A DNA stretch of 20,000 nucleotides from an uncultured virus (IMG/VR IMGVR_UViG_3300022858_001422) (Duplodnaviria; Heunggongvirae; Uroviricota; Caudoviricetes). Of the stretch, positions 3,922 through 19,408 are shown in pieces; within the stretch, counting starts at the first letter, position 1; each line of letters opens with the position of its first letter. The DNA is taken from the IMG/VR virus record IMGVR_UViG_3300022858_001422; one strand, 5' to 3'. The translations under genes and the position numbers were made by a program. A model generated the notes under the pieces. That model saw only the letters and a list, made by a program, of their open reading frames with translations. It did no database searches and had not been told where the DNA came from.

Positions 3922-3922
3922 A

Positions 3923-4177: not shown

Positions 4178-4178
4178 T

Positions 4179-7588: not shown

Positions 7589-7609
7589 TCTTACTCCTTT
7601 TAAAAACCT

Positions 7610-7628
7610 CATAAAACATTCCTTTCAT
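7610..7628. repeat. CATAAAA-N6-TTTTAT palindrome copy
   Basis: C ATAAAA CATTCC TTTCAT (1 mismatch), intergenic. Confidence 0.7.
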
Positions 7629-7634
7629 ATTGTT

Positions 7635-7904
7635 TTACCACGCTTGTTCATACTCTTTAATTTTCACACCGTTTTCTTCAAGAATGGCTTTAATTTTAAT
7701 TGAACAATCCAGACATAAATCTTCAATTACAAATCCTTCTCGAAGATCACAATCTGAATACTCTTCTCCGTAAATAAAATTTATATCCATAACTCTTTCA
7801 TCATAAGTTGGTGCGTAGCTATGACCAAATTTTTTACCGCACATATCACAAAAAACATCTTTCTCTGCATTTCTTACAATTGTTTTTTCAACATAAGTTC
7901 TCAT
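7635..7904 (-). CDS. Small zinc-ribbon protein (CxxC...CxxC)
   Basis: FCDMCGK...DLCLDC; probable start MRTYVEK at 7904, just after the upstream stop at 7906, with a GGAG SD. Confidence 0.7.
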   Translation of the reverse strand: MRTYVEKTIVRNAEKDVFCDMCGKKFGHSYAPTYDERVMDINFIYGEEYSDCDLREGFVIEDLCLDCSIKIKAILEENGVKIKEYEQAW

Positions 7905-7905
7905 T

Positions 7906-8202
7906 TTATTTTCGCTCCAATTCAACATCAATGGAACATCTTCCTTCTTGTGCACCTTTCAACTGTTCAATCTCAGCGATCAGGTGGTCTAATTGTGTAT
8001 TTGCTGCATAAAGCAATGTGTTGCTAATTTTTAATTGGCATTTCAGGTGGTCAAACTCTGCAAGAATGTCAGCTTCATGCGTTTTAGTTGCTTGCCGATA
8101 TACCATATGATCGTCTTCGTTTCCGTAGAGATCGAACATTTGCCAACGCTGCGCGGATGAAATTAATTTATACAGTTTCGTTTTCATATCATCGTGGTTC
8201 AT
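7906..8202 (-). CDS. Hypothetical protein
   Basis: The ORF track gives 7906..8223; GAGGA SD favours the ATG at 8202 (MNHDD). Confidence 0.65.
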   Translation of the reverse strand: MNHDDMKTKLYKLISSAQRWQMFDLYGNEDDHMVYRQATKTHEADILAEFDHLKCQLKISNTLLYAANTQLDHLIAEIEQLKGAQEGRCSIDVELERK

Positions 8203-8220
8203 TTCTATTCCTCTAAATAT

Positions 8221-8239
8221 CATAAAATTATGATTTTAT
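8221..8239. repeat. CATAAAA-N6-TTTTAT palindrome copy
   Basis: C ATAAAA TTATGA TTTTAT, perfect, intergenic. Confidence 0.85.
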
Positions 8240-8243
8240 TGCT

Positions 8244-8283
8244 AATAGTATAACAACAGAATTTCTCCTGCTGCTATACTATT
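8244..8283 (-). terminator. 16-bp stem-loop (terminator-like, or back-to-back extended -10 elements)
   Basis: AATAGTATAACAACAG (8244-8259), 8-nt loop, CTGCTGCTATACTATT (8268-8283). Both mismatches are G-U pairs in the minus-strand RNA. It lies about 10 nt after the stop of 8293..8676. No clear U-tract follows. Confidence 0.55.
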
Positions 8284-8292
8284 TTGCTAAAA

Positions 8293-8676
8293 TTACATGT
8301 TGTTCAACATTTCAGTAAGTTCTTCTGGCGACATATTCTTTAGGTTTTCATCCTGTTTATCTGCCAAAATTTCTTTAATGCGTTCTTTCTGTTCATGACG
8401 TTTTGAAGCTTCAATTTTCGCTTCTTTTTCAGCTAGTTTTTTCATTACGACATGTTTTACAATTTCAATTTTCCATACCAGTTCTTTATCTGCTGTTGAA
8501 CGAGTGTTGAGTAAACTTTCTTCTTCCACCTGTTTTAATTCAGTATTGAGCGTCTTGAAAACCTGGTCTAAATCACGAAGTGATAAGTCCCATAGATCCT
8601 CAGTTGCAACTACACCACGAAAAGGGAAACGAAACTTATTACGAATTGCTACTTCAAAAACATTAATTTCACTCAT
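8293..8676 (-). CDS. Conserved phage hypothetical protein (partner of the 678 aa protein)
   Basis: 127 aa; FEVAIRNKFRFPFRG...EDLWDL...coiled coil...MSPEEL; AGGAG SD. From memory this family occurs next to the 678 aa family in large phages. Confidence 0.8.
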   Translation of the reverse strand: MSEINVFEVAIRNKFRFPFRGVVATEDLWDLSLRDLDQVFKTLNTELKQVEEESLLNTRSTADKELVWKIEIVKHVVMKKLAEKEAKIEASKRHEQKERIKEILADKQDENLKNMSPEELTEMLNNM

Positions 8677-8690
8677 TTTAAAATTCTCCT

Positions 8691-10727
8691 TTAGAATTTA
8701 ATTTTGATCACTCGCTCCGAGAGACCTTTAATTTTTACAATAACTTCATTTCTCTGTGTTGAAGAAAATCCAACACCAGAAAGTTGTTCTTCTGATTCCT
8801 CAACATGCAGTTTACTACCTAATGCCTCTAAAACTTTTCTATGTTTTGTTAAATCCTCCTTTAAGAATTCATTATAAAAACCATTTGGTAATTCTGAATT
8901 GATACAATCTTTCAGCATAAAGAAAAAGTGTTTGTTCCCAATACCAGTCTGTTCATCCCAATAGTTAGGTGAGAACATAACGATAGAAACTGGAATAAAT
9001 TGATTAGTTGTAACATTCCAAATTTCACGTGATGAAATAGATGAAGGTAATTGTTCTTTGATAGAGAAAACACCATTTTTAAGTGTTACTTCTGCAACAG
9101 GAATTTGTTCACTCTGACGAACATCTTTACCATAATCAAAAGAATACATCTGACCATTGAATTCAACTTCAGCACGAAAACCATTTCGTCCACCAACATG
9201 ATTATAACAGTGAACAAAGAATTTATAAACTCCATCTCTCATTCTGTTTAATTCTGCCCAAGTAATATTTTCAACCGCTGGGGTTCCAGAAACAGGATTG
9301 ATAATATCTACATCTAAAGTAGCACCAGTAATACGATTATGTTTATTTCTAAAGGAGATATGAGTTCCAGTTGGTTCCATACAGTGAGCATCTAAATCAT
9401 TTTGATCACGCTCAACATCATTCCACTGAATAGAGAAGCGCAGGACACCATCTACCCTGCCACCAGCAGACTTTACATGCTCTTTCATAGAACTATCAGT
9501 AATGTTGCCACTATAAGCCCAACCAAATGAGTTGTTCCATTTGAACATACTTTCTGAATCTTCATTCTTAGGAGCAATCAATGAAACCATATTTGGAGCA
9601 TGTTTATTTTCTAAGAATAATTCTAGTTCTCTCACTGTAGGAAGAACATTTTCAACAAAATCATTGATAGAAATTTCTTCAACTTTTGAAAATTTCTTAG
9701 GATCTGAAGTAGTTTCGTTCATCATTTGTTCAAAAATATCTTCTTCGCCCATGTTCCGTACTGAATCTCGATTCGCAAACAATACATTGTTGATTGTAAT
9801 ATCATCAATCTGAGCATATCTCCGTTGAAGTGAATCGCTATAACCTAATTCTTCAACCGTTTTCTTAGCGTCTTCCAACATCTTTTTAGTAAAAATTGCT
9901 TTTGGTCGTTTATAGTTTGAAGGAGCTACAATAGACTCATACTTGCTTACCGCTAAATCAAGCTCCATCCCTTCGCTCAAATTTACTAACAAAGTTCCAA
10001 TTGAGTGGTTTCTGATTCGCGTCAAAGTACCACTAGAAGAAACAGATTTTTCCCAAGCATAATTTTCCTGTTCCTGTCCTGATAATTTAGAATAAGCTTT
10101 CTTATGTTTTAAAAATTCATTTAAAAGCCCCCTCCATTCCTCGCCTTTGTAAAGTGAATTTTGGGAAATTAATTCTAAAACAGTCATGACGCTTTCTTTT
10201 GAAATTTCATCAAGAGATCGTTTGAACACATTTTTAGACGATAATTTTTCACCCTTTTGTTCATTGATTGCTCCATTGCTATCAATAAATCTTGACGGGA
10301 GCGTCAAGTGAAAATGATTCCACCTACGCATATTTCCATCCTCCAATGCCTCAATACTGCTTTCTGTTCCTACATTTTTTGATCCATAAAGAAAAATTCC
10401 TTCAACTTCATGATTATGAATATATTCAGACAGTGAATCAATAACCGTCTGAAATTTTTTGTCTTCAACTTCAAAATCCCAAAGACTAATCACTTTGTTA
10501 TCTTTAATAACCACAGAATTCCCAATTGTCTTGATAAAGCCTCGACAACAAGAACAATCGTATTCTCGCCGTTCGCGATAAATCTCATTCGTTCCTTCTG
10601 GAAAAGAATCTAAATATAGATTCCACAAATAATCCTTATCGACAGCTACCTCAAATAAACTTGCGGCATCTTTTGAAACGTTATTAAAATGTTCCTGCAT
10701 TTTTGCCCTAAACTCATAGAATTCCAT
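8691..10727 (-). CDS. Large conserved phage protein with a C-terminal YfaP/DUF2135-like beta domain
   Basis: 678 aa; YDCSCCRGFI near the N-terminus, VAPSNYKRP, LRFSIQWN...DLDAHC...LDVDI...AVENITW, SPNYWD, LSGVGFSST. Confidence 0.8.
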   Translation of the reverse strand: MEFYEFRAKMQEHFNNVSKDAASLFEVAVDKDYLWNLYLDSFPEGTNEIYRERREYDCSCCRGFIKTIGNSVVIKDNKVISLWDFEVEDKKFQTVIDSLSEYIHNHEVEGIFLYGSKNVGTESSIEALEDGNMRRWNHFHLTLPSRFIDSNGAINEQKGEKLSSKNVFKRSLDEISKESVMTVLELISQNSLYKGEEWRGLLNEFLKHKKAYSKLSGQEQENYAWEKSVSSSGTLTRIRNHSIGTLLVNLSEGMELDLAVSKYESIVAPSNYKRPKAIFTKKMLEDAKKTVEELGYSDSLQRRYAQIDDITINNVLFANRDSVRNMGEEDIFEQMMNETTSDPKKFSKVEEISINDFVENVLPTVRELELFLENKHAPNMVSLIAPKNEDSESMFKWNNSFGWAYSGNITDSSMKEHVKSAGGRVDGVLRFSIQWNDVERDQNDLDAHCMEPTGTHISFRNKHNRITGATLDVDIINPVSGTPAVENITWAELNRMRDGVYKFFVHCYNHVGGRNGFRAEVEFNGQMYSFDYGKDVRQSEQIPVAEVTLKNGVFSIKEQLPSSISSREIWNVTTNQFIPVSIVMFSPNYWDEQTGIGNKHFFFMLKDCINSELPNGFYNEFLKEDLTKHRKVLEALGSKLHVEESEEQLSGVGFSSTQRNEVIVKIKGLSERVIKIKF

Positions 10728-10728
10728 T

Positions 10729-10968: not shown

Positions 10969-11001
10969 ATCTTCATCCTTTTTTATTCTTTTCGTGTTCT
11001 A

Positions 11002-11030
11002 ATCATACCACATAAATGGTATTTTTGCAA
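11002..11030 (-). promoter_or_regulatory. Sigma70/SigA-type promoter
   Basis: Minus strand: TTGCAA (11030-11025), 17 nt, TATGAT (11007-11002), with an extended -10 TG. Confidence 0.75.
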
Positions 11031-11080
11031 CATAAAAAGAACTATTTATTAAAAAACTCACATAAAACGGGAATTCTATG
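11031..11080. repeat. Two tandem CATAAAA-N6-TTTTAT copies, 30 bp apart
   Basis: C ATAAAA AGAACT ATTTAT (11031-11049) and C ATAAAA CGGGAA TTCTAT G (11061-11080), 1 mismatch each; the second abuts the stop at 11081. Confidence 0.75.
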
Positions 11081-11572
11081 CTATTTTTTGCAAAGTTTCT
11101 CATGATCTTTCAGTGTTCCAACACGATAACCGCAATTTTTATTTTTACAAAATATAGTTTCTCCGCCAGGAATTAATGAAGCATAGCAATTTTCACCACA
11201 CACAGGACAAGAACTAATTTTTGGTTCTGGATCTAATGGCATCGGAAAATTTTCGTCATACATCCAAATAATATTGTTGAATCCATTGTTTCTCCAAAAC
11301 TTATATTCCGTTGCTGACGTGTGATGAATCGCATTATAATTTCCTGCGTCTTTATTCATCCATCGAATACCTCGAACACCATCAGCCTCTTCCACTGCGC
11401 CATTATTCCACGCCTTCAGTTCATTTTCTTTCACAACATTTTCTTTATGAATCCAATAAAGGCTATCTGCATCATCGAATTCAATTAATAATTCATTACC
11501 CTTTGAACCTTTAACTTTTGCTTTTATTAAAACATTGTCACCAAACAGAATGTAATTTTCTGTACTATCCAT
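11081..11572 (-). CDS. Hypothetical protein with a C-terminal zinc ribbon
   Basis: CPVCG...CKNKNC at the C-terminus; probable start MDSTEN at 11572 (TAATG overlap). Confidence 0.7.
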   Translation of the reverse strand: MDSTENYILFGDNVLIKAKVKGSKGNELLIEFDDADSLYWIHKENVVKENELKAWNNGAVEEADGVRGIRWMNKDAGNYNAIHHTSATEYKFWRNNGFNNIIWMYDENFPMPLDPEPKISSCPVCGENCYASLIPGGETIFCKNKNCGYRVGTLKDHEKLCKK

Positions 11573-11760
11573 TATTTTTTCTCCCAATCTAAATTATCTT
11601 CAACTGTGTAACTGTACGTTCTCAAAATTCTGGCAGCCTGACTGGTTCTTTTTAGCCATTCATCAGAAAATTCATAATCTAGTTTACAAGCCAGATCAAT
11701 AATATCTTTTGCTGAAGCAGGATCGCTATCTAACAAATATTTTTTATCTAAATAACTCAC
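11572..11760 (-). CDS. Hypothetical protein
   Basis: 62 aa; GTG start with an AAAGGA SD. Confidence 0.65.
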   Translation of the reverse strand: MSYLDKKYLLDSDPASAKDIIDLACKLDYEFSDEWLKRTSQAARILRTYSYTVEDNLDWEKK

Positions 11761-11776
11761 TCTGTTATCCTTTCGT

Positions 11777-11796
11777 CATAAAATCTTCGTTTTATG
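11777..11796. repeat. CATAAAA-N6-TTTTAT palindrome copy
   Basis: CATAAAA TCTTCG TTTTATG, perfect 7-bp arms, intergenic. Confidence 0.88.
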
Positions 11797-11807
11797 CCAT
11801 TTAATTT

Positions 11808-11954
11808 TTATCCGTTACCTTTTTTACGTTTCTCTTGCTCTATGCGTTCTCGTTCTTCACGGTTGATACGATCTCTTTCACGTTCCGCAATATCTCGCAA
11901 TTCTCGTGAAATTCTTTCTTCTCGCTGTTGTCGTTCTGCATCCGTTTCTCTCAT
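11808..11954 (-). CDS. 48 aa Glu/Arg-rich charged helical peptide
   Basis: Not in the ORF track. MRETDAERQQREERISRELRDIAERERDRINREERERIEQEKRKKGNG*; SD GAGGAG upstream of the ATG. Confidence 0.7.
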   Translation of the reverse strand: MRETDAERQQREERISRELRDIAERERDRINREERERIEQEKRKKGNG

Positions 11955-11997
11955 ATTCTTTCTCCTCTATATAAATAATTTCAACTTATTTTTCCAT

Positions 11998-12016
11998 ATA
12001 AAATGTATTTTTTTAT
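11998..12016. repeat. Motif variant with a 7-bp spacer
   Basis: ATAAAA TGTATTT TTTTAT; contains the stop codon at 12013-12015. Confidence 0.55.
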
Positions 12017-12499
12017 TCTATTTTTTTGTACCAAATCTCAAAGGATGATAACATTTCTCCACACAGAATTTTTCCACGACAATGAATACGCATTAATCCA
12101 CTCTCTCGTAAACAATCAATTTTGCCATCCGGCAGCATCAACCTTATTGTATTCAGCTTTTGGTTTTTTTGTCCAATCTTTTCCAAGACCGCCAATACCA
12201 TTCATGCAAAGAACGTCACTACTTCCCATAAATTTACAAAATGGTTCATTATCGATAATTGCTACAAAATTCATAATTCTGAATCCACTATCGTGCAATC
12301 CTTCAATCTCATAAATTTCTGGTTCTCTAATTACGTTTGTTTTCCCTGACAACCACTTCAAAAATCTATATTTCAAAACATCAAATGTTTTTACATCAGC
12401 AGGAATAATAATTAAAGAGCTGCATAAAAGATCGCCACTACCCCATTCTCTTTTAGGAACATTCATAATTTCTTTTTTTGTCATACTATTAATATTCAT
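12013..12499 (-). pseudogene. Conserved phage hypothetical gene split by a +1 frameshift (real or sequencing error)
   Basis: 12116..12499 ends ...AAGWQN*, and the overlapping frame 12013..12201 continues IDCLRESGLMRIHC...LSSFEIW. Removing one base from the T4 run at 12120-12123 joins them as GWQIDCLRESGL. Confidence 0.7.
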
Positions 12500-12504
12500 T
12501 TTTT

Positions 12505-13425
12505 TTATCCTTTCAAACTATCGATAACGTCAAAATAAACTTGAGTCAAAGCTTTTTTATTGGCTGAATGTGGTAGTTGAGATGTGTTATATAGTTCATT
12601 GAATTTTTTATCAAAATTATCAGCCATTTCTATAATTTCATCATAAGAATACTTTCCGTTTTTAATTGATAAAATTTCTTCGGCATTTACAAGAGGAAAT
12701 GTAATTTTACCGGTTGTCAATAACTCCTCGCCCTCAGTCATAAGTCTTACTAAATGGCTTGCATGTTTTGTATCATATCCAAATTTTTCTTCAAGGGGTT
12801 TTCTCTTTGGATTACGGTTCTTATCCCACATGAGATAGTTATCCCAAGCTGTTTTAGATGCAATGTAAGACTTTTCTTTTTCGATCTGTTCTTTATATTC
12901 ATCTTTCAATAAATCAAAACTTAGCGTATCTTTTACAGCCTTAATCCAAGCTAAACTTACAATAGGATTATGTGGCAATCCAAAATCTTTTCGATCTGGT
13001 TTATTTTTTGGAGGATTTAAAAACCATTTTCTGTGTCTTTCAATAAGTTTCAGTTGTGAAAAAGCATAACCAGAAAATGTAAATTTAGACTTCTTGCTAA
13101 TAAAGAGATTTTTATGAGTTAAAATATATTCCCATTCTTTTGTACAAACAAGCATTTTATCTTTTGGAATAAAAAGAAGTTCAATAATATTCGGATTATT
13201 ATCTGCGCAAAGCTTCATAAATTTTTTAAGATTGTAGATTGTTCTATCTTCCTCTTTAAATCCAGAATCCTTTTGGTCAAAATTGTTGAATGGATCTAAA
13301 AGAACGTTGAGAGGCGGAATACATACACCTCGATAATCAATATCGCTTTCTGGTGTTTCTGTTCCATAAAGACGACTGCCTGTTATACATTCAAAAATCC
13401 TGTGTTTTTCTATATCAAAATTCAT
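12505..13425 (-). CDS. DNA polymerase beta-superfamily nucleotidyltransferase (Nuc-transf/RlaP/YcgL-like)
   Basis: GSRLYGTETPESDIDYRGV (GS..DxD), NNPNIIELLF, FSGYAFSQL, GYDTKHASHLVRL, IKNGKY; AGGAG SD favours the ATG at 13425. Confidence 0.9.
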   Translation of the reverse strand: MNFDIEKHRIFECITGSRLYGTETPESDIDYRGVCIPPLNVLLDPFNNFDQKDSGFKEEDRTIYNLKKFMKLCADNNPNIIELLFIPKDKMLVCTKEWEYILTHKNLFISKKSKFTFSGYAFSQLKLIERHRKWFLNPPKNKPDRKDFGLPHNPIVSLAWIKAVKDTLSFDLLKDEYKEQIEKEKSYIASKTAWDNYLMWDKNRNPKRKPLEEKFGYDTKHASHLVRLMTEGEELLTTGKITFPLVNAEEILSIKNGKYSYDEIIEMADNFDKKFNELYNTSQLPHSANKKALTQVYFDVIDSLKG

Positions 13426-13440
13426 ATCTCTCCTAAATAT

Positions 13441-13459
13441 CATAAAATAAAGATTTTAT
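13441..13459. repeat. CATAAAA-N6-TTTTAT palindrome copy
   Basis: C ATAAAA TAAAGA TTTTAT, perfect; contains the stop codon at 13456-13458. Confidence 0.88.
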
Positions 13460-13671
13460 CTGTTTTTATTTCTTTTAATTATAGTAAAAATAACGACAAA
13501 AGACATCGCCAACCCAAATAATTGAAAACAAATTAATAAAAGCCCAATAATCGAATTGACCTCTAATTCAAGAAGAGAACAAACCCATGAATAAACGTTT
13601 CTCCACTGAAAAATACCAATAATACTATAAACAAACCAATTACTTACAGACCATTCAATAAAATTTTTCAT
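13456..13671 (-). CDS. Small membrane protein
   Basis: 71 aa with two hydrophobic segments and a basic C-terminus. Confidence 0.6.
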   Translation of the reverse strand: MKNFIEWSVSNWFVYSIIGIFQWRNVYSWVCSLLELEVNSIIGLLLICFQLFGLAMSFVVIFTIIKRNKNR

Positions 13672-13799
13672 TTTCTTTTCCTTTTTTCTTCAATAATAAG
13701 ACTTACACCAAATACAATTGCACACAATCCTAGAAAAATATAAACCAGGATAACAAATGCAAAAATAAATAGAACTAAATCAAAACCTAACGGGATCAT
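13668..13799 (-). CDS. 43 aa membrane peptide
   Basis: Not in the ORF track. MIPLGFDLVLFIFAFVILVYIFLGLCAIVFGVSLIIEEKRKRK*; fills the gap exactly and ends in an ATGA overlap with the next gene. Confidence 0.6.
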   Translation of the reverse strand: MIPLGFDLVLFIFAFVILVYIFLGLCAIVFGVSLIIEEKRKRK

Positions 13800-13801
13800 A
13801 A

Positions 13802-14029
13802 CTACCTGCTCTGTTCTAGATATTCAAGAAATTCTTTTTGCACATCATCACGAACTGGTAAAACACATTTACTGGCCTGCGCTCCATATAAAAACGCTAC
13901 AACTCCAAGAGACTTTCCGTTTCTAATAAATACTTCATCATCTCCTCTAAATTTAATAGAATATACTCCACAAAATTTACCCATGCTTTTAAATTCTCTA
14001 ACAATAATTAGGTTTTTAAAACTTCCCAT
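13802..14029 (-). CDS. Hypothetical protein
   Basis: 75 aa; TAATG overlap with the upstream gene and a GGAG SD. Confidence 0.65.
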   Translation of the reverse strand: MGSFKNLIIVREFKSMGKFCGVYSIKFRGDDEVFIRNGKSLGVVAFLYGAQASKCVLPVRDDVQKEFLEYLEQSR

Positions 14030-14448
14030 TATTCATCTCCTTCAAGACTTTCATCATCAACAACCCATCTCGTAAAACCAACCTTATAGGCATCATTCTT
14101 ATGACTAAAATTATGATGATTTCCTATATCATACTTACTTCCAATCCATCCATCAATATTGTAAGGCTTTAAAAGTTCTTCTTTTTCGTTATCTGATAGA
14201 CCAAACGATCCTTTTGAAATTTTTATGAATTCTTTTTTCATTTCTCGCTTCATTCCAATCCTATCAATATTATGTATAGAAATATTGCATTCTTGTAATG
14301 AAAGCCCTGTAATAGCTCTTGAAAAACTTTCTAAACTCATCTCAATATCACAAAAAGTAACGCCAGACTTTTCATCTGTAATTGCGATATGAATAGGTTC
14401 TTTGTTTCTAAAATCATTATACCTTGAAATTGTAATTTTACCGTTCAT
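14029..14448 (-). CDS. Conserved phage hypothetical protein
   Basis: 139 aa; GKITISR...IHIAITDEKSGVTF...SLESFSRAITGL; AAGGA SD. Confidence 0.75.
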   Translation of the reverse strand: MNGKITISRYNDFRNKEPIHIAITDEKSGVTFCDIEMSLESFSRAITGLSLQECNISIHNIDRIGMKREMKKEFIKISKGSFGLSDNEKEELLKPYNIDGWIGSKYDIGNHHNFSHKNDAYKVGFTRWVVDDESLEGDE

Positions 14449-14476
14449 TTTTTATCCTTATTTATAATTAAAATCC

Positions 14477-14498
14477 TCATAAAACTATTATTTTATGA
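14477..14498. repeat. CATAAAA-N6-TTTTAT palindrome copy
   Basis: TCATAAAA CTATTA TTTTATGA, perfect 8-bp arms, intergenic. Confidence 0.9.
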
Positions 14499-14503
14499 TG
14501 TTT

Positions 14504-14701
14504 TCAGTCTTCCATCAAAATTATATCATCAAGAAGTTCCAGACAATTAATAATTTTTTCAAGCATTCTTTTTTCATCATCCTGAAAAATCTCTTCTAAC
14601 CAATTTTCTTCTAGTTCTTCAATATATTCAATCCTTGACTCTACCATTTTTTTATATTTTCTTGTTTCATCGAGCAAAACATATTTATCTGATTCATTCA
14701 T
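14504..14701 (-). CDS. Acidic hypothetical protein
   Basis: The ORF track gives 14504..14758; GGAG SD favours the ATG at 14701 (MNESDK). Confidence 0.6.
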   Translation of the reverse strand: MNESDKYVLLDETRKYKKMVESRIEYIEELEENWLEEIFQDDEKRMLEKIINCLELLDDIILMED

Positions 14702-14717
14702 TTCATTTCTCCAGACA

Positions 14718-14894
14718 CTAGATTTCTTCAAACATAAATTCAAACCCATAAGCTTCATTTGTCCATTCCAGAAGAATAGACGTTTTTTCAGCCATCAACA
14801 TTTCGTTCCATTCTTTTTCTGTAATATCTAAATCCTCAAGAATGATAACACTTTCTGTTTCTACCATATCTGAATTATAAACTTTGATCTGCAT
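14718..14894 (-). CDS. 58 aa acidic hypothetical protein
   Basis: Not in the ORF track. MQIKVYNSDMVETESVIILEDLDITEKEWNEMLMAEKTSILLEWTNEAYGFEFMFEEI*; AAGGA SD; fills the gap between neighbours. Confidence 0.65.
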   Translation of the reverse strand: MQIKVYNSDMVETESVIILEDLDITEKEWNEMLMAEKTSILLEWTNEAYGFEFMFEEI

Positions 14895-15123
14895 ATTTTT
14901 TTCCTTCTTTCATTTCATTCAACATTTCCAATAATTCTTCTTTTTGTTCTGCAATTTGACAACACAATTCTATCAGTTCAATAGCCTTTGGCAATTCATA
15001 ATTAGATAGAATTTCATCGTATTCGTTTACTCCTCCATTATCAACAAGATCATCAAGCGCCTCCTGACAATCACAAAGATCCCCAAAAGTATTTTCAAAA
15101 CGACAATAAGACATATTGCTCAT
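14875..15123 (-). CDS. Conserved phage hypothetical protein (MSNMSYCRFENT family)
   Basis: 82 aa; recognisable N-terminal motif; AGGAG SD; first gene after the promoter at 15162-15190. Confidence 0.8.
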   Translation of the reverse strand: MSNMSYCRFENTFGDLCDCQEALDDLVDNGGVNEYDEILSNYELPKAIELIELCCQIAEQKEELLEMLNEMKEGKKYADQSL

Positions 15124-15161
15124 TATTTTCTCCTAACATAAAAATTCTTCTTGCTGTTATC

Positions 15162-15190
15162 AGTATACTGCGTTATATCCCATATGTCAA
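15162..15190 (-). promoter_or_regulatory. Near-consensus sigma70/SigA promoter
   Basis: Minus strand: TTGACA (15190-15185), 17 nt, TATACT (15167-15162). Confidence 0.85.
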
Positions 15191-15197
15191 CTGTTAT

Positions 15198-15350
15198 TCA
15201 ACTAATGAATTTTTCACAGCCAACTTTTACATCGCGAATCCAATTACATCCAACCTTGACCCAATAAAAATCTTTGTAAACAGCAACATCGCCATTTTTT
15301 AGAATAACTGTTTTTGGCATTTCCTCAATTGTCATAACTTTTTTCTGCAT
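15198..15350 (-). CDS. 50 aa hypothetical protein
   Basis: Not in the ORF track. MQKKVMTIEEMPKTVILKNGDVAVYKDFYWVKVGCNWIRDVKVGCEKFIS*; AAGGAG SD. Confidence 0.65.
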   Translation of the reverse strand: MQKKVMTIEEMPKTVILKNGDVAVYKDFYWVKVGCNWIRDVKVGCEKFIS

Positions 15351-15389
15351 ACCTGATCTCCTTTAAACATATTCTGTATAAAATTTATG

Positions 15390-16472
15390 TTATGGGTTTA
15401 TGTGCATTGGCATAATAATAAACTGCATTTTTCCATCTGTTGTTTCAAACAATACTGGCATATCTTTTTTATTGAATTTAATGTTCCAATATTTATCAGT
15501 ATTTTTCAATCCGTTCAATACATAATTTCCATCCAGGGCAACATGTTCTTCTTCTTCTAAGAATGGAAAATTCATTTTATAATGATACGTGTTTGTTGAT
15601 GAGTTTCTGTTATCCTCATGTTTCCAATCAATTCCGTTTACACGAAAAACAACAACGCTGTTTTCTTTTAGAAAAGCACCTTCAACACCTTCAATAACTT
15701 CTTCAATATCTAACTTCTCAACGTGCTTAAATTTTGTAGGTATAACTGCATCAATAGCAGGATGATTAAAACTTGCGTGTTCCACATCAATATAAGCAAA
15801 ACCATTAGTATAAGCAATTGCCCATTGTGATTTATAAACAAAACCATCCTGTTCTTTCTCTCTATTGAATAAGTTCAGTAAAATATCTTTCTTTGAATTT
15901 ATCAACTTCATAAAAGTCTTGTTGACAAAATACTCTTCATCAAGATGTGTTTCTGTTTTACAAACCAATACACTGAAACCATCAGTTGAGAAAATCCTGT
16001 TTCCACTAAAGAAAACACCATCAAAAGCAGGCTTCTGTTTGCACGAAACCCTGTTACAATACTTCAGCTCTTTGTCAATATCTTTTAGAAGCCAGGTTGG
16101 ATTCAAAATTTCATTGATAACGCATGCATTAAGGAAAGGAACTTCGTCAAAATCAATTAGTTCTTCAATCTTATAGGATTTTTTCTCGTCTTCAATTGTC
16201 AAATTGTTATCATCATCAATCTGAATAGAAAAATCTCCATTGAAATTCTTTGTGTATTTTTCAAAATCTTTCAGCTTCACAGTGAAGCTGTTTTCAATTT
16301 GTTCATCAATAACATGGGCAACAGCAGTTTCAAAATCAGATGTCCAAACCAAAGTTTTGTTATCCATTTTCATAAAGTGGATATTTTGAGCAACTGGCAC
16401 TGAAGTTTCTTTTCCAACTGATCTTTTGCATTCTGTAATAATAGTCTTCATATACTTTGAATTAATAAACAT
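15390..16472 (-). CDS. Divergent DNA polymerase III beta-clamp (DnaN)-like protein
   Basis: 360 aa, the size of DnaN. TSDFE (cf. TDLE), STDGFSVL (cf. ATDGHRL), HPAIDAVIP (cf. YPxYxxVIP), LDGNYVLNGL (cf. FNxxYLxDAL), C-terminal FIIMPM (cf. YxxMPM). GAGGAG SD. Confidence 0.75.
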   Translation of the reverse strand: MFINSKYMKTIITECKRSVGKETSVPVAQNIHFMKMDNKTLVWTSDFETAVAHVIDEQIENSFTVKLKDFEKYTKNFNGDFSIQIDDDNNLTIEDEKKSYKIEELIDFDEVPFLNACVINEILNPTWLLKDIDKELKYCNRVSCKQKPAFDGVFFSGNRIFSTDGFSVLVCKTETHLDEEYFVNKTFMKLINSKKDILLNLFNREKEQDGFVYKSQWAIAYTNGFAYIDVEHASFNHPAIDAVIPTKFKHVEKLDIEEVIEGVEGAFLKENSVVVFRVNGIDWKHEDNRNSSTNTYHYKMNFPFLEEEEHVALDGNYVLNGLKNTDKYWNIKFNKKDMPVLFETTDGKMQFIIMPMHINP

Positions 16473-16474
16473 TT

Positions 16475-16615
16475 TTAATCCTCCTCAATCATTAAACATT
16501 CTTGATCAATTTCTTTTAGAATCTTATCTGAATTCCAGGACACTCTAACATAAACTATTTTATCAATAGAGACCCAAGATTTTTCAACAATGCCTCTGGC
16601 ATTTTCAAATTGCAT
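16475..16615 (-). CDS. Possible 46 aa ORF or gene remnant
   Basis: MQFENARGIVEKSWVSIDKIVYVRVSWNSDKILKEIDQECLMIEED*; fills the gap but has no clear SD. Confidence 0.4.
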   Translation of the reverse strand: MQFENARGIVEKSWVSIDKIVYVRVSWNSDKILKEIDQECLMIEED

Positions 16616-16620
16616 GTGAG

Positions 16621-16911
16621 TTAAAGAATCTTCATTCTCATACAATATTTATAATGAATGCTCAAATACTCTTCAGCTTCTTTTTTAGAAGGTAAAATAA
16701 CACCAATTCTTTTATAGTATCCCGTACTGGTATCATAAGAAAGAATTTCATAATTGAGATATAATTTATAAGAATCTTCATTATAGAAGTTTTTAAAAAT
16801 ATAATAAATCATTGAAAAATCATTTTTCAATGATTCTATAACATCTTTAAATTCTTCCCCATAATTTTCCAGGGCATCTTCTGACATTTTCACTCTATCA
16901 TTTTTTTTCAT
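16621..16911 (-). CDS. Hypothetical protein
   Basis: 96 aa; AGGAG SD. Confidence 0.65.
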   Translation of the reverse strand: MKKNDRVKMSEDALENYGEEFKDVIESLKNDFSMIYYIFKNFYNEDSYKLYLNYEILSYDTSTGYYKRIGVILPSKKEAEEYLSIHYKYCMRMKIL

Positions 16912-16951
16912 TTTATTGCTCCTGTTCTATAATCTTTCATTAGTAAAATCG

Positions 16952-16970
16952 CATAAAATCTATCTTTTAT
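16952..16970. repeat. CATAAAA-N6-TTTTAT palindrome copy
   Basis: C ATAAAA TCTATC TTTTAT, perfect; begins 3 nt downstream of the TATAAT at 16974-16979. Confidence 0.88.
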
Positions 16971-16973
16971 CGT

Positions 16974-17002
16974 ATTATATCATTAAGCAACAATTGCTGC
17001 AA
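16974..17002 (-). promoter_or_regulatory. Sigma70/SigA-type promoter with extended -10
   Basis: Minus strand: TTGCAG (17002-16997), 17 nt, TATAAT (16979-16974), preceded by TG-A. Confidence 0.65.
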
Positions 17003-17042
17003 CTACAACAACAAATAAAACCACAACTAATATCGCTTCCAT
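16983..17042 (-). CDS. 19 aa hydrophobic peptide
   Basis: MEAILVVVLFVVVVAAIVA*; AAGGA SD; the ATG is 1 nt after the upstream stop. Confidence 0.45.
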   Translation of the reverse strand: MEAILVVVLFVVVVAAIVA

Positions 17043-17043
17043 G

Positions 17044-17250
17044 TTATTCCTTTATAGTGTTGAAAAACTTCGTCAATGTCTTTTGTACTTTCTGTTCTCC
17101 TTCAGTGGTATTACACCAGACAGAAACATCAAAAATATTATCACAAAAGTGATACCTGACTTTACACTGGTAACGATCCTCTAATAATTTTTTAATTTTT
17201 TCATTATTAGGATTATTCTCATCTGTGTAAAAAGTAATAGAAAAAATCAC
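17044..17250 (-). CDS. Hypothetical protein
   Basis: The ORF track gives 17044..17319; probable GTG start at 17250 overlapping the upstream TGA (or ATG at 17256). Confidence 0.6.
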   Translation of the reverse strand: MIFSITFYTDENNPNNEKIKKLLEDRYQCKVRYHFCDNIFDVSVWCNTTEGEQKVQKTLTKFFNTIKE

Positions 17251-17468
17251 AACCATAACATCACATCTTGAAAATCTTCTGTTAAAACTTCTTCGGCATC
17301 CTGAATATTTGGAACGCACTCATAAGTAGCTTCAAAACCATCTTTATCAAAATACGATCCATCGGAGGGATAATACTTATTTTTATACAACCACTGTTTA
17401 GCCTCTTTGATATTTTCAGCCCATCCCAAAATTTCTAAACTCTCACGACCTGTTTTAATAATAACCAT
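17247..17468 (-). CDS. Hypothetical protein
   Basis: 73 aa; GGAGGAG SD; TAATG overlap. Confidence 0.7.
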   Translation of the reverse strand: MVIIKTGRESLEILGWAENIKEAKQWLYKNKYYPSDGSYFDKDGFEATYECVPNIQDAEEVLTEDFQDVMLWL

Positions 17469-17623
17469 TACTTCAATTCTCCTCCGTCATTCCAATGACT
17501 CAAACAATAACTAATCCATGAATAAATTACTGCAAATGTAAACGCTGCCGCTAAACAGGCAAAGAATACAAATACGAAAATCCCTGCCACTAACAGCGAT
17601 ACAATAACACCTTGTAAACCCAT
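17468..17623 (-). CDS. 51 aa membrane peptide
   Basis: Not in the ORF track. MGLQGVIVSLLVAGIFVFVFFACLAAAFTFAVIYSWISYCLSHWNDGGELK*; AAAGGA SD; TAATG overlap with the next gene. Confidence 0.65.
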   Translation of the reverse strand: MGLQGVIVSLLVAGIFVFVFFACLAAAFTFAVIYSWISYCLSHWNDGGELK

Positions 17624-17635
17624 CAAATTTCCTTT

Positions 17636-17878
17636 CTAAGAGCTTTTAGATAGTTCTCTTAGTAACTCTACACATTGACGGTTTTTTTCTTCATCACCGC
17701 CAAATTTGTGTTCAATAATATCTGCAAAATCCAACCAGGAAATTGTTTCATTATCACCAATAATAAATGAAAAAGAATCAATTCCAAAATTAATTAACTC
17801 TGTTTCACTATCTGTTAATGCCCTGCACGTGTAAGCCAAGGCAATTTTTCCACCTTTATATTTCTTGATCGTGTTCAT
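17636..17878 (-). CDS. Hypothetical protein
   Basis: 80 aa; AAGGA SD; TAATG overlap. Confidence 0.65.
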   Translation of the reverse strand: MNTIKKYKGGKIALAYTCRALTDSETELINFGIDSFSFIIGDNETISWLDFADIIEHKFGGDEEKNRQCVELLRELSKSS

Positions 17879-18351
17879 TATTTGATCCTTTCAATTCTTT
17901 CGTTCAAAAGTTCTTTAAAAATTCTGTTCTTTTGTACTTCTTGTTCACTAAGGCAATCATTTTCATTTTTATAAATATATTCATCTTGATGCAGATAAAG
18001 ATATTCTACGAAAGATGCCAAAAAATCTTTCTCGCATTTTGAACCATGTTTAAAACTATCTAAGTGAGCTATAACCAAAAACGAACACTCAACAAACTTA
18101 GAATTGGTAAATTTATAATTTTTTGGTGATAATGAACCAATAAAATAATTGATTGCAACATTATATTCTTGAATTTTTTTATTCTTTTGATCTAACCCTA
18201 ATTGAGCCATCCAAGAAATATCTTGAATCATTTTTGCAATATTTTCGTTGTCTTCAGAAACAAATTTTGTAAACAGTTTCCAGAATTTATATTTTTGTTC
18301 TGGCATACTAAAAAAATCTTTAATACTATTAAATAAATCTAATTCATTCAT
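17878..18351 (-). CDS. Hypothetical protein
   Basis: The ORF track gives 17878..18363; GGAGGA SD favours the ATG at 18351. Confidence 0.65.
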   Translation of the reverse strand: MNELDLFNSIKDFFSMPEQKYKFWKLFTKFVSEDNENIAKMIQDISWMAQLGLDQKNKKIQEYNVAINYFIGSLSPKNYKFTNSKFVECSFLVIAHLDSFKHGSKCEKDFLASFVEYLYLHQDEYIYKNENDCLSEQEVQKNRIFKELLNERIERIK

Positions 18352-18368
18352 AATTTCCTCCAATACTA

Positions 18369-18387
18369 ATAGAATATCTCTTTTATG
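18369..18387. repeat. Palindrome copy
   Basis: ATAGAA TATCTC TTTTAT G (1 mismatch); contains the MTase stop codon at 18383-18385. Confidence 0.7.
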
Positions 18388-19108
18388 CTACTTGATAATC
18401 CATATACAAATCAACAATCTCAACAGGTGAAGATGTATGTAAAAATCCTTTTTCAAAACTTTCTACAATGTAGGCTGAAACATATCGTTGTTCACACTTT
18501 TCTTTGATAAGACTTTCTGTTTGTTCATTCTTAAAATAATCCACTGTACGATCATTCTCGCCACGAACACGACTAACACCAGTTCCTTTTGGTAGAATAA
18601 AAGTCCCTCCAAAATCTTTTGTGTTTTCAATAGCAATTCTAATTGCTGCTACATGAGATTTTTCATCATAGCCCTCAAATTTTGCACCAAACGGAGGATT
18701 AGAAATAACCATGTCAAACTCAAGACTTTCAATTAGTTCCTTTGTTACGTCCGCACAAATCCAGGTAGCCTGTGGCACAATTAATTTGCCAATTTCTACA
18801 AACAACGGATTGTTTTCAACACAAATATATTTATTGCTAGGATTTCTATAGCTATGAACAAACGAAAGAACACCAATTCCAGCACATAAATCTAAAATTA
18901 TGCTGTTATCCACATTCGACCAGGGCATGATATGAAAAGCAATCTCTACTGGTGTAAAAAATGCGTTACCTTTCTTTGCTTCTTTTGGTGAAAGTAAGAA
19001 TGGATCAATGTTATCAATGTTATCCAAAATATAGTTTGTGTTAAAACTTCCTGAACGAATTATATCTATCGTTTCATCGTGCAATTTCACTTGTTGTTTT
19101 GCTGGCAT
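18383..19108 (-). CDS. Orphan gamma-class N6-adenine DNA methyltransferase
   Basis: 241 aa; motif X GNAFFTP, motif I ILDLCAGIG, CVE, motif IV FDMVISNPPFG, FILP. Confidence 0.88.
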   Translation of the reverse strand: MPAKQQVKLHDETIDIIRSGSFNTNYILDNIDNIDPFLLSPKEAKKGNAFFTPVEIAFHIMPWSNVDNSIILDLCAGIGVLSFVHSYRNPSNKYICVENNPLFVEIGKLIVPQATWICADVTKELIESLEFDMVISNPPFGAKFEGYDEKSHVAAIRIAIENTKDFGGTFILPKGTGVSRVRGENDRTVDYFKNEQTESLIKEKCEQRYVSAYIVESFEKGFLHTSSPVEIVDLYMDYQVA

Positions 19109-19120
19109 AATTTTTATCCT

Positions 19121-19378
19121 TTATTTTACTCTATTCTCACTTGTATGAATCCAGTTATAATCTTTGCCGGTTGTTTTGTGCATATAGGCCATACAACGCA
19201 ACCACGACCAATCAAAACCCTCTGGTATCAATTCTGCCACTATAGGGCAACGATTTCTAACTATAAAGTATACCATATCGGATCTAATTTCATCGGATAA
19301 TGTTGGAATTTTCTTGATATCTAAAAATTTTCCTGTACAAATAGACTTCATATGTTTATTAAATTCTCTTTTTTTCAT
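19121..19378 (-). CDS. Hypothetical protein
   Basis: 85 aa; GAGGA SD. Confidence 0.65.
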   Translation of the reverse strand: MKKREFNKHMKSICTGKFLDIKKIPTLSDEIRSDMVYFIVRNRCPIVAELIPEGFDWSWLRCMAYMHKTTGKDYNWIHTSENRVK

Positions 19379-19389
19379 TTTTCAATCCT

Positions 19390-19408
19390 CATAAAATGAT
19401 AATTTCAT
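19390..19408. repeat. CATAAAA-N6-TTTTAT palindrome copy
   Basis: C ATAAAA TGATAA TTTCAT (1 mismatch), intergenic. Confidence 0.72.

What the first reader, a model, noticed from the sequence alone, without database searches (positions are those of the whole stretch)
7610..19408. Oriented palindrome CATAAAA-N6-TTTTAT marks gene junctions and divides the accessory region into modules
Seen: 11 junction copies, with left arms at 7611, 8222, 11032, 11062, 11778, 11998 (7-bp spacer), 13442, 14479, 16953, 18369 and 19391. The arms are conserved, the spacer length is fixed at 6 bp, and the spacer sequence varies. A C precedes the left arm on the + strand in 9 of 11, so the site has an orientation relative to transcription. 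Intergenic DNA is a small share of the window, yet my manual scan found only one intragenic copy (1596). In three copies (12013, 13456, 18383) the TAA stop of the upstream gene sits at the same position within an arm. In most copies the next gene's SD follows within about 30 nt. The intervals between sites hold 1-7 genes. Knowledge: inverted arms around a 6-8 bp spacer describe both tyrosine-recombinase core sites (e.g. Xer/dif, 6-bp spacer) and operators of dimeric repressors. Inference: either (a) recombination sites that bound exchangeable gene cassettes, an integron-like or pdif-like system for phage accessory genes, or (b) a genome-wide operator or nucleoid-protein site. Non-identical spacers argue against classical homology-dependent recombination between arbitrary pairs.
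Basis: partly seen in the sequence, partly recalled or inferred. Interest (0 to 1): 0.85.

Follow-up and report, generated by a model that had tools for sequence, protein, structure and literature searches.

The report
Gene-junction palindrome of SPbeta-like phages
An 18-base palindrome sits between genes in this phage and in the whole SPbeta-like phage group, and related phages have swapped genes preferentially at exactly these sites.

Summary
ATAAAA-N6-TTTTAT occurs 6 times exactly in the window against 0.07 expected. Only the 6-base spacer is enriched, and 10 of 11 copies with at most one mismatch lie between genes. Each copy lies between the upstream stop codon and the next ribosome-binding site.

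The motif marks many SPbeta-like (YonO-encoding) phages, including Bacillus phage SPbeta itself (38 copies against 4 in the control). In a 6.4 Mb Paenibacillus genome all 20 exact copies lie inside the prophage. It differs from SPBRE, the known SPbeta repeat bound by the repressor MrpR.

In three comparisons, homology between relatives starts or stops at the motif. Motif-bearing gene junctions serve as breakpoints more often than motif-less ones (9/10 against 9/33, and 17/38 against 7/35).

The two arms degenerate symmetrically and the predicted RNA hairpin is weak. This favours a duplex-DNA site for a two-fold symmetric phage protein, which has not been identified. A dedicated recombinase is neither shown nor excluded. 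I found no description in the papers I could read; the 1999 SPbeta genome paper was not available.

The parts
1596..1613 (.). Exact copy inside the family-2 glycosyltransferase gene 1066-1749. It is the only intragenic copy.
7611..7628 (.). Junction copy with 1 mismatch (ATGAAA arm in sense orientation), upstream of the SD and start of gene 7343-7612.
8222..8239 (.). Exact junction copy, 19 nt before my called start of the gene ending at 7906. Contig joints 7984->8200 and 8240->10983 leave this 41-nt piece as an island.
11032..11049 (.). Junction copy with 1 mismatch, in tandem with 11062. In sense orientation it is followed directly by a sigma-A-like TTGCAA-17-TATGAT.
11062..11079 (.). Junction copy with 1 mismatch, just after the stop of gene 11081-11587. 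Contig ends 11054/11082 bracket it.
11778..11795 (.). Exact junction copy, 17 nt before the GTG start of gene 11572-11760. Contigs start at 11767.
11998..12016 (.). Exact arms with a 7-base spacer, the only such copy.
13442..13459 (.). Exact junction copy. The TAA stop of gene 13456-13671 lies in the arm, and the next gene starts 16 nt on. Contig ends 13426/13455 overlap it, and a variant joint 12503->13439 removes the downstream gene.
14479..14496 (.). Exact junction copy between genes 14504-14758 and 14029-14448.
16953..16970 (.). Exact junction copy, 41 nt before the start of gene 16621-16911.
18369..18386 (.). Junction copy with 1 mismatch. The TAA stop of gene 18383-19108 lies in the arm.
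19391..19408 (.). Junction copy with 1 mismatch. Metagenome contig L038 is 100% identical to the window from 12151 up to base 19408 and unrelated beyond it.

Best explanation
The motif is the junction element of SPbeta-like phages. It is an 18-bp two-fold symmetric DNA site with half-site ATRAAA and a fixed 6-bp spacer of free sequence. It sits between the stop codon of one gene and the ribosome-binding site of the next, in long co-oriented gene arrays.

Shown: it is real and specific to the 6-base spacer. It is confined to the phage or prophage and absent from the host chromosome. It is conserved across phages that share almost no genes. Junctions that carry it are preferred breakpoints of gene replacement, insertion and deletion between relatives.

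Inferred: it is read as duplex DNA by a dimeric phage-encoded protein, not yet identified. All copies share the same arms in the same register at positions where a join harms no gene. Recombination between otherwise unrelated neighbours therefore resolves inside the arms, and the genes between two sites behave as exchangeable cassettes. In this reading the exchange is a by-product of a conserved protein-binding site, a short linker in Botstein's sense, and not the work of a dedicated recombinase.
For: Enrichment and spacer specificity.

Position between stop and SD: 10/11, 27/35 and 47/54 copies are intergenic in W, G1 and G2. Over nine genomes, 354 copies lie within 45 nt upstream of 1931 called starts, against 46 in a control shifted into the genes; the distance peaks at 12-22 nt.

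Phage-specific: in a 6.4 Mb Paenibacillus genome 20 of 20 exact copies lie in an 82-kb stretch around the YonO homologue. The figures are 17 of 28 in Aquibacillus and 6 of 11 in Virgibacillus.

Family-wide: SPbeta 38 against 4 in the control, G001 35:5, G002 54:5, G006 40:0, G009 20:0, G010 38:4. G1 and G2 nevertheless share only 12 of 239 proteins by blastp.

DNA rather than RNA: single variants at the paired positions 3 and 16 are symmetric, G.T 31 against A.C 31, and single changes (62) far outnumber double G-C changes (13). In W+G1+G2 the table 39/18/17/10 shows no association. Predicted RNA hairpins are weak, -1.3 to -6.2 kcal/mol, and 2 of 6 fold in another register. In SPbeta some copies precede terminators, not genes.

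Not a promoter: copies lie inside the SPbeta late region, which YonO transcribes as one operon from one start site (PMC5467207, passages).

Breakpoints:
- L038 against the window, at base 19408.
- G2 against G11: 22 of 32 boundaries lie within 5 nt of a copy. For G2's own copies the count is 17, against a mean of 1.55 and a maximum of 7 in 2000 random placements.
- SPbeta against five named relatives: 15 of 41 boundary positions, against a null mean of 1.15 and maximum of 6. 10 of the 11 copies in that 20 kb are used.
- Junction-level test: 9/10 motif junctions against 9/33 others (p=0.0007), and 17/38 against 7/35 (p=0.03).
Against: No binding protein is identified.
- The best phylogenetic-profile hit (YorM: 7 of 8 motif-positive genomes, 0 of 5 negative) is a cell-wall 3D-domain protein and so not a plausible binder.
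- The DndB/ParB-like YopQ is present in only 5 of 8 motif-positive genomes, even with a profile search.

Twelve conserved bases in two 6-bp arms are short for homologous recombination.

In G2 against G11 the spacer nearly always stays with the shared block. Random use of either arm predicts this in only about half of the cases, so some polarity is unexplained.

One G11 insertion and one SPbetaL2 insertion are flanked by copies with the same or nearly the same spacer, as conservative site-specific integration would give.

Pooled over nine genomes, G3 and C16 are associated (odds ratio 3.0, Fisher p=0.005). I attribute this to G2, which favours both variants, but it is also what a weak hairpin constraint would give.

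Breakpoints also occur at motif-less junctions and inside genes: 10 of 32 and 26 of 41 boundaries are not at a copy.

Gene calls are from my own rough caller.
Confidence: 0.5

Rival explanations
1. Dedicated site-specific recombination. The 18-bp sites would be core sites (arm, 6-bp overlap, arm) for one of the orphan tyrosine recombinases of SPbeta-like phages (YopP or YomM type). Cutting at the arm-spacer boundaries would excise, insert and exchange promoterless gene cassettes, giving an integron-like or pdif-like system carried by a phage.
For: - The architecture matches a tyrosine-recombinase core site.
- SPbeta integrates with a serine recombinase, yet it also carries YopP, YomM and the recombinase-fold repressor MrpR. 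MrpR's own operator is likewise an inverted repeat around a spacer.
- G1 has five such genes.
- YomM homologues in G2, vB_BcoS-136, G1 and Sundance keep the R-K-H-R-H/W-Y set, read by eye from an alignment.
- Crossovers map to the arm-spacer edges: the outer-arm position 3 or 16 differs while the spacer is identical.
- The yoqH-yoqI indel joins two copies exactly at left arm | spacer.
- Two insertions are flanked by copies with the same or nearly the same spacer.
- In G2 against G11 the spacers stay in place while the arm-to-arm segment is replaced.
Against: - The arms are only 6 bp, and spacers differ between nearly all copies. Classical exchange needs spacer identity, yet events between different spacers are seen.
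- Homologous blocks carry both flanking sites, unlike integron cassettes.
- YopP and YomM families also occur in motif-negative Sundance, KKP_3916 or Mediterraneibacter.
- SPbeta and G8 YomM have K in place of the second catalytic R.
- Adjacent copies sharing a spacer are no commoner than chance overall: 6 of 566 adjacent pairs against 0.75% of non-adjacent pairs.
- No circles or hybrid sites were observed. The contigs laid cannot show them.
Confidence: 0.25
2. RNA-level element. In the polycistronic mRNA the AU-rich dyad just 5' of the SD would form a small hairpin or bind a phage RNA-binding protein. This would insulate or couple translation of each cistron, or mark a processing site. Breakpoints would gather there only because it fills the intergenic gap.
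For: - The copy abuts the SD, mostly 12-22 nt before the start codon.
- The upstream stop codon lies in the left arm in 18 of 57 sites.
- In the window a flanking C...G can lengthen the stem, and four of six copies fold better than every one of their 200 shuffles, though only at -2.4 to -6.2 kcal/mol.
- Pooled G3-C16 association, odds ratio 3.0.
Against: - A.C singles are as common as G.U singles (31 against 31), and singles outnumber compensated pairs 62 to 13.
- There is no association within W+G1+G2.
- The stems are all A-U and marginal, and 2 of 6 fold in another register.
- The stem sequence is conserved while the loop is free, the reverse of most protein-bound RNA hairpins (general knowledge).
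- Copies occur before terminators, with no gene following.
- Motif-less junctions express genes in the same arrays.
Confidence: 0.15
3. Promoter or promoter-proximal operator of each small transcription unit.
For: Two copies abut canonical sigma-A -35/-10 pairs: window 11032 and G2 59627. Some window copies have a TATAAT-like box a few bases upstream.
Against: - Those boxes lie at no fixed distance from the motif.
- In G1 and G2 the SD follows within 0-3 nt, leaving no room for a leader.
- Copies lie inside the single YonO-driven late operon of SPbeta.
- The arms match no known -35/-10 spacing.
Confidence: 0.05
4. Compositional by-product of A+T-rich gaps that need a TAA stop and a U-rich stretch before the SD.
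For: The left arm contains TAA/TGA. TTTTAA variants next to the SD are asymmetric: 19 in the right arm against 4 mirror-image variants in the left arm.
Against: - Only spacer 6 is enriched.
- Equally A+T-rich relatives lack the motif: G16, Sundance, Fictibacillus.
- The host chromosome has none.
- The degeneracy is symmetric.
Confidence: 0.03

Closest known systems
PeSL (promoter-early stem-loop) cassettes of T4-type phages (Arbiol et al. 2010, PMC2839356: abstract and sections 13 and 16 read; Comeau et al. 2014, PMC4122927: search listing only)
   Same: A repeated intergenic element lies between the upstream stop and the downstream SD in plastic regions full of small unknown genes. Insertions, deletions and replacements between close relatives are bounded by it.
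   Different: PeSLs conserve about 100 bp, contain a sigma-70 promoter and a G+C-rich terminator stem-loop, and recombine by homology. This element has 12 conserved bases, no promoter and no stable stem. It also lies inside a single late operon.
SPBRE, the operator of the recombinase-fold master repressor MrpR/YopR of SPbeta (Kohm et al. 2023, PMC10516654: abstract and passages read)
   Same: Same phage group. It is a dispersed inverted repeat around a spacer in intergenic DNA, and it was found first in silico.
   Different: The sequence differs (ATACA-N7-TGTAT type). SPBRE has about 10 sites at promoters, against 38 junction copies here. MrpR ChAP-seq gave peaks only at SPBRE sites.
Tyrosine-recombinase core sites bounding modules (Xer/dif, pdif modules) and integron attC arrays (recalled, not read here)
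   Same: Inverted arms around a 6-bp spacer. Arrays of promoterless co-oriented genes separated by palindromic sites. Breakpoints fall at the sites.
   Different: The arms are 6 bp, not 11 bp as in dif, and attC sites are 57-141 bp. Spacers are nearly all different. Blocks carry both flanking sites. No IntI-type or Xer-type partner is shown.
Stoperators of mycobacteriophage L5 and SAS/ESAS of cluster K phages; OB sites of KorB on RK2 (all recalled, not read here)
   Same: Dozens of copies of one short site spread through a mobile genome in short intergenic gaps or just upstream of starts.
   Different: Stoperators and SAS are asymmetric and oriented. KorB sites are few and promoter-linked. None is reported, to my recollection, as a mosaic breakpoint.
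Linker or boundary sequences of lambdoid phages (Botstein's modular theory; HK620/Sf6 boundary sequences; recalled)
   Same: Short conserved sequences at gene borders proposed as foci of exchange between modules.
   Different: Those are weakly conserved and their role is disputed. Here there is one defined 18-bp dyad with statistical support.

Membership tests
Tyrosine-recombinase core site (Xer/dif-like, pdif-type module boundary) | Inverted arms around a 6-8 bp spacer of fixed length | tested here: met
   6-6-6 architecture. Only spacer 6 is enriched.
Tyrosine-recombinase core site (Xer/dif-like, pdif-type module boundary) | Arms long enough for specific monomer binding (about 7-13 bp) | tested here: not met
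   Conservation covers 6 bp per arm, plus a weak A at -1 and a weak inner position.
Tyrosine-recombinase core site (Xer/dif-like, pdif-type module boundary) | A cognate, catalytically competent recombinase in the same element | tested here: inconclusive
   There is none in the window. Relatives carry YopP and YomM-type genes, some with a full catalytic set, but these also occur in motif-negative phages.
Tyrosine-recombinase core site (Xer/dif-like, pdif-type module boundary) | Exchange between sites with identical spacers, leaving hybrid sites | tested here: inconclusive
   Two insertions are flanked by copies with the same or nearly the same spacer. Other events join copies with different spacers. 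Adjacent same-spacer pairs are at the chance level.
Integron attC / cassette array | attC of 57-141 bp with paired R and L boxes; each cassette carries one attC; IntI, attI and Pc are present | tested here: not met
   The site is 18 bp. Shared blocks carry both flanking copies. No integrase lies in the window.
PeSL regulatory cassette | Sigma-70-type promoter plus a stable terminator stem-loop within about 100 bp of conserved sequence | tested here: not met
   No fixed -35/-10 boxes. Hairpins are -1.3 to -6.2 kcal/mol. Copies lie inside the one-promoter late operon.
PeSL regulatory cassette | Bounds indels and replacements between close relatives | tested here: met
SPBRE / MrpR operator | 15-bp SPBRE consensus at the MrpR-bound promoters | tested here: not met
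   The sequences upstream of aimR, yonT, yonX, yopV, yorE and yonP share a different palindrome. Only yorE also has a junction copy nearby.
Dimeric-repressor operator (434 or KorB style) | Two-fold symmetric half-sites that vary independently, with a free central spacer | tested here: met
   Position 3/16 tables; the spacer is unconserved.
Dimeric-repressor operator (434 or KorB style) | A protein that binds it | not testable with these tools
   Phylogenetic profiles gave no convincing candidate.

The most novel reading that the evidence does not exclude
SPbeta-like phages carry a cassette-exchange system of their own. The 18-bp junction sites would be core sites for their orphan tyrosine recombinases (YopP or YomM type), which cut at the arm-spacer edges and move promoterless accessory genes in and out of operon-like arrays and between co-infecting phages. 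This would be a phage counterpart of integrons.
Probability: 0.22. Interest if true: 0.9.

Novelty: new variant of a known kind. Interest (0 to 1): 0.72.

Why it matters
SPbeta is a long-standing model prophage of Bacillus subtilis, and its relatives carry many defence and counter-defence genes in exactly these arrays (Gad1 and Gad2 are annotated there). A defined 18-bp site that marks where such genes are swapped would make phage mosaicism testable at single sites in a genetically tractable host. It would point to an unassigned DNA-binding or recombination function among the conserved unknown proteins of this group. It would also give a practical marker for delimiting accessory-gene cassettes in prophages and metagenomic contigs.

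Tried and rejected
- Own contig. The window is not in the phage records, IMG/VR or the species genomes. No whole genome is held. One 8.9-kb metagenome contig matched.
- RNA evidence. No RNA holder was listed.
- Laid contigs. They are fragmented. Some ends coincide with copies (8210, 11054/11082, 11767, 13426/13455, 19408) and others do not (14769, 17642/17645, 19235). Only 31 of 608 pieces and 24 of 321 loose ends were shown, so I made no count. They cannot show circles.
- Host search. A search with the 678-aa protein found nothing in genome contigs.
- More close pairs. G1 against five contigs of about 141 kb gave no match. G8 against G16 gave zero hits. G2's neighbour protein found only G2 and G11.
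- Rejected identities. SPO1 late or middle promoters, a T4-type late promoter and phiKZ-type TATG were considered from memory and dropped, because the flanks are not conserved in relatives. SPBRE was rejected.
- Binder by phylogenetic profile. YorM is a 3D-domain cell-wall protein. YopQ is DndB-like but present in only 5 of 8 motif-positive genomes.
- A target-site-duplication model, with the arms as terminal inverted repeats of each cassette. It fits one G11 insertion but not the general pattern of distinct spacers.
- Earlier scan notes. Nothing on this genome. Two conceptually similar notes on other genomes did not bear on this case.
- Literature. Term searches in the SPbeta review, two SPbeta preprints and the MrpR and YonO papers found no such motif. 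Broader searches also found none.

Full report
**1. The observation**

ATAAAA-N6-TTTTAT occurs 6 times exactly in the 20-kb window. The mean in 200 dinucleotide-preserving shuffles is 0.07, and no shuffle reached 6. With one mismatch allowed there are 11 copies at spacer 6. Every other spacer from 0 to 14 gives 0-4 copies, and the everted arrangement gives 0-6. At two mismatches the signal sinks into background: 21 against 13.3 expected.

The copy at 11998 has exact arms and a 7-base spacer.

The window is about 94% coding by my rough gene caller, yet 10 of the 11 copies lie outside genes.

All credible genes are on the minus strand. Read in the sense of transcription, each copy follows the stop codon of one gene and precedes the SD and start of the next. 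In W, G1 and G2 the upstream stop is the TAA or TGA inside the left arm in 18 of the 57 oriented sites for which an upstream ORF was found.

**2. Where else the motif occurs**

The window has no near relative in the phage records. Loci found through its 678-aa protein showed the same motif in two IMG/VR contigs:
- G001: 35 copies with at most one mismatch, against 5 for the reversed control pattern.
- G002: 54 against 5.

In these contigs 27 of 35 and 47 of 54 copies are intergenic, mostly 10-20 nt before a start codon and abutting GGAGG.

G1 and G2 share only 12 of 239 proteins by blastp. The motif is therefore far better conserved than the gene content.

A scan for the motif followed by an SD found 105 places in IMG/VR, many in contigs of 115-145 kb. 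Four of five such contigs tested were enriched: 40:0, 52:12, 20:0 and 38:4.

Portal similarity places G1 among SPbeta-like siphoviruses. G1 encodes a homologue of the SPbeta polymerase YonO, a CI-like repressor and five tyrosine-recombinase-like proteins.

Bacillus phage SPbeta itself has 38 copies against 4 in the control. vB_BcoS-136 has 28 against 8. The Staphylococcus SPbeta-like phage has 18 against 13 overall.

The following are not enriched: Sundance, KKP_3916, G16, TsarBomba, pCD1602_4 and G003-G005.

Whole genomes that carry YonO prophages give the clearest control.
- In a 6.4 Mb Paenibacillus genome, all 20 exact copies lie within 82 kb around the YonO gene.
- In Aquibacillus 17 of 28 lie in the prophage contig region, and in Virgibacillus 6 of 11.
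- Two other YonO prophages, in Fictibacillus and Mediterraneibacter, show no enrichment.

The element therefore belongs to the phage and is not a signal of the host chromosome.

**3. What it is not**

*Not SPBRE.* SPBRE is the known SPbeta repeated element, bound by the recombinase-fold repressor MrpR (PMC10516654, abstract and passages). The sequences upstream of aimR, yonT, yonX, yopV, yorE and yonP share a different palindrome. The ChAP-seq in that paper reports ten peaks, all at SPBRE promoters.

*Not annotated.* The SPbeta record annotates stem-loops and two palindromes in 50-100 kb, but none at the junction copies.

*Unlikely to be a promoter.* YonO transcribes the SPbeta late genes as one operon from one mapped start (PMC5467207, passages), yet copies lie between genes of that cluster. 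In G1 and G2 the SD follows within 0-3 nt.

**4. DNA site or RNA hairpin**

Over nine motif-positive genomes, 354 copies with at most two mismatches lie within 45 nt upstream of 1931 called starts. A control shifted 120 nt into the genes gives 46.

The main variable positions are 3 (A or G) and its partner 16 (T or C). The counts are:

| Pair at positions 3 / 16 | Copies |
|---|---|
| A / T | 222 |
| G / T | 31 |
| A / C | 31 |
| G / C | 13 |

The two single variants are equally frequent. In the sense RNA one of them is a G.U pair and the other an A.C mismatch. Single changes outnumber compensated pairs 62 to 13.

Pooled, G3 and C16 are associated (odds ratio 3.0, p=0.005). Within W+G1+G2 there is no association (39/18/17/10), and 10 of the 13 double variants are in G2. 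I therefore read the pooled association as a lineage effect, but it is a point for the hairpin model.

Predicted RNA hairpins of six window copies have -1.3 to -6.2 kcal/mol, and two fold in a different register.

In SPbeta some copies are followed by an annotated terminator and not by a gene.

Taken together, this favours recognition of duplex DNA by a two-fold symmetric protein with half-site ATRAAA.

**5. Mosaic boundaries**

*Window against L038.* Metagenome contig L038 is 100% identical to window 12151-19408. It is unrelated from the next base on, which is the upstream edge of copy 19391-19408. A contig of run X21 also leaves the window at 19408. It may come from the same population.

*G2 against G11.* G11 (183 kb) is 98-99.9% identical to G2 outside a 28-kb variable region that is a patchwork of shared and unshared segments.
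- Of 32 block boundaries, 22 lie within 5 nt of a copy in one of the two genomes.
- For G2's own copies the count is 17, against a mean of 1.55 and a maximum of 7 in 2000 random placements.
- Homology typically starts one base before ATAAAA or ends at or just after TTTYAT. One 39-nt island of identity is a single copy.

*SPbeta against five relatives.* I compared SPbeta 80-100 kb with Goe13, phi3T, SPR, SPbetaL4 and SPbetaL2.
- 15 of 41 distinct boundary positions lie within 5 nt of a copy, against a null mean of 1.15 and a maximum of 6.
- 10 of the 11 copies in that stretch are boundaries in at least one comparison. The exception is the intragenic copy.

*A fairer null.* Most boundaries fall at gene junctions anyway: 26 of 32 and 36 of 48. 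Among junctions, those carrying the motif are used more often:
- 9 of 10 against 9 of 33 in SPbeta (p=0.0007).
- 17 of 38 against 7 of 35 in G2 (p=0.03).

The preference is real but not exclusive. It rests on my own gene calls and on BLAST end points.

**6. Anatomy of the joins**

In G2 against G11 the spacer nearly always stays with the shared block. The outer arm often differs at position 3 or 16. The replaced unit therefore runs from a right arm to the next left arm.

In the SPbeta group I see joins at left arm | spacer, inside the right arm, and near the spacer-right-arm edge. The first kind is the yoqH-yoqI indel, which joins two copies with different spacers.

One 611-bp insertion in G11 and one 2.2-kb insertion in SPbetaL2 are flanked by copies with the same or nearly the same spacer. 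Overall, though, adjacent copies share spacers no more often than chance.

These patterns fit either of two mechanisms:
- exchange at the arm-spacer edges by a recombinase that tolerates heterologous spacers;
- microhomology-mediated joins filtered by selection.

I cannot separate the two by computation.

**7. Candidate proteins**

SPbeta encodes MrpR/YopR, YopP and YomM, all of tyrosine-recombinase type. By my reading of an alignment, YomM homologues of G2, vB_BcoS-136, G1 and Sundance keep the catalytic residues, while SPbeta and G8 have K for the second R.

None of these families separates the 8 motif-positive genomes from the 5 motif-negative ones.
- The best profile, YorM (7/8 against 0/5), is a 3D-domain cell-wall protein.
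- The DndB/ParB-like YopQ scores 5/8 against 0/5, even with a profile search.

The binder remains unknown.

**8. Verdict**

The best-supported reading (0.5) is a phage-specific duplex-DNA junction site, bound by an unidentified dimeric protein, that doubles as the preferred crossover point for cassette exchange. Its closest analogue in role is the PeSL of T4-type phages (PMC2839356). It differs from the PeSL in size, content and probably in mechanism.

A dedicated recombination system (0.25) and an RNA element (0.15) remain open.

I found no description of the element in the papers I could search or read. The 1999 SPbeta genome paper was not available, so prior mention cannot be excluded.

Noticed in passing
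window 1-7330: A minus-strand block encodes RmlA-like nucleotidyltransferase, a 4,6-dehydratase, a DegT-type aminotransferase, an RmlD-like reductase, a family-2 glycosyltransferase, DUF5672, an N6/N4 DNA methylase and an HD-domain protein. This may be a sugar pathway for DNA or surface modification. It has no junction copies apart from the intragenic one at 1596.
   Followed up: no
window 8293-10727; G1 56463-58945; G2 67098-69556: A 678-aa protein with no Pfam match and its 127-aa neighbour are 47-60% identical across W, G1 and G2. The 678-aa protein alone is about 61% identical in Bacillus phage TsarBomba. This pair is by far the best conserved between phages that share almost nothing else.
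   Followed up: partly
G11 73053-74773 and 32967-34328 (loci L284, L282): Two insertions relative to G2 are each flanked by an 8-bp direct repeat. One, of 1.7 kb, splits the 678-aa gene homologue. They look like IS-type insertions and are unrelated to the motif.
   Followed up: no
window 10990-11079: Two motif copies lie 30 nt apart (11032, 11062). In sense orientation they are followed by a canonical sigma-A-like TTGCAA-17-TATGAT. G2 59627 has the same arrangement of a copy next to a promoter, after a terminator hairpin.
   Followed up: partly
G1 12025-16257 (locus L039): Two tyrosine integrase genes flank a tail-fibre-like gene and a small XRE-type regulator, which might be a tail-fibre switching module. 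G1 has five integrase-like genes in all.
   Followed up: no
SPbeta 79874-81256 (yopQ); G2 86454-87761; Paenibacillus prophage (L425:4048-5343): YopQ-like proteins, encoded next to the repressor MrpR/YopR, match Pfam DndB (ParB-like fold) just above the curated cut-off.
   Followed up: partly
SPbeta 50181-50198: This copy lies directly against the annotated yonB start, and its 6-base spacer contains GGAG. Here the ribosome-binding site sits inside the spacer.
   Followed up: no
SPbeta 92393-92769: The small opposite-strand gene yoqT lies exactly between two motif copies, as an inverted cassette would. The + strand ORF 11794-12048 of the window also lies between two copies, but it is doubtful.
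   Followed up: no
window as a whole; All 24 listed runs holding the window are labelled salt lake metagenomes. Halophilic Bacillaceae (Aquibacillus, Virgibacillus) carry motif-rich YonO prophages, which hints at the host group. Apart from the 678-aa/127-aa pair, only scattered accessory genes of the window have homologues in SPbeta-like genomes.
   Followed up: partly
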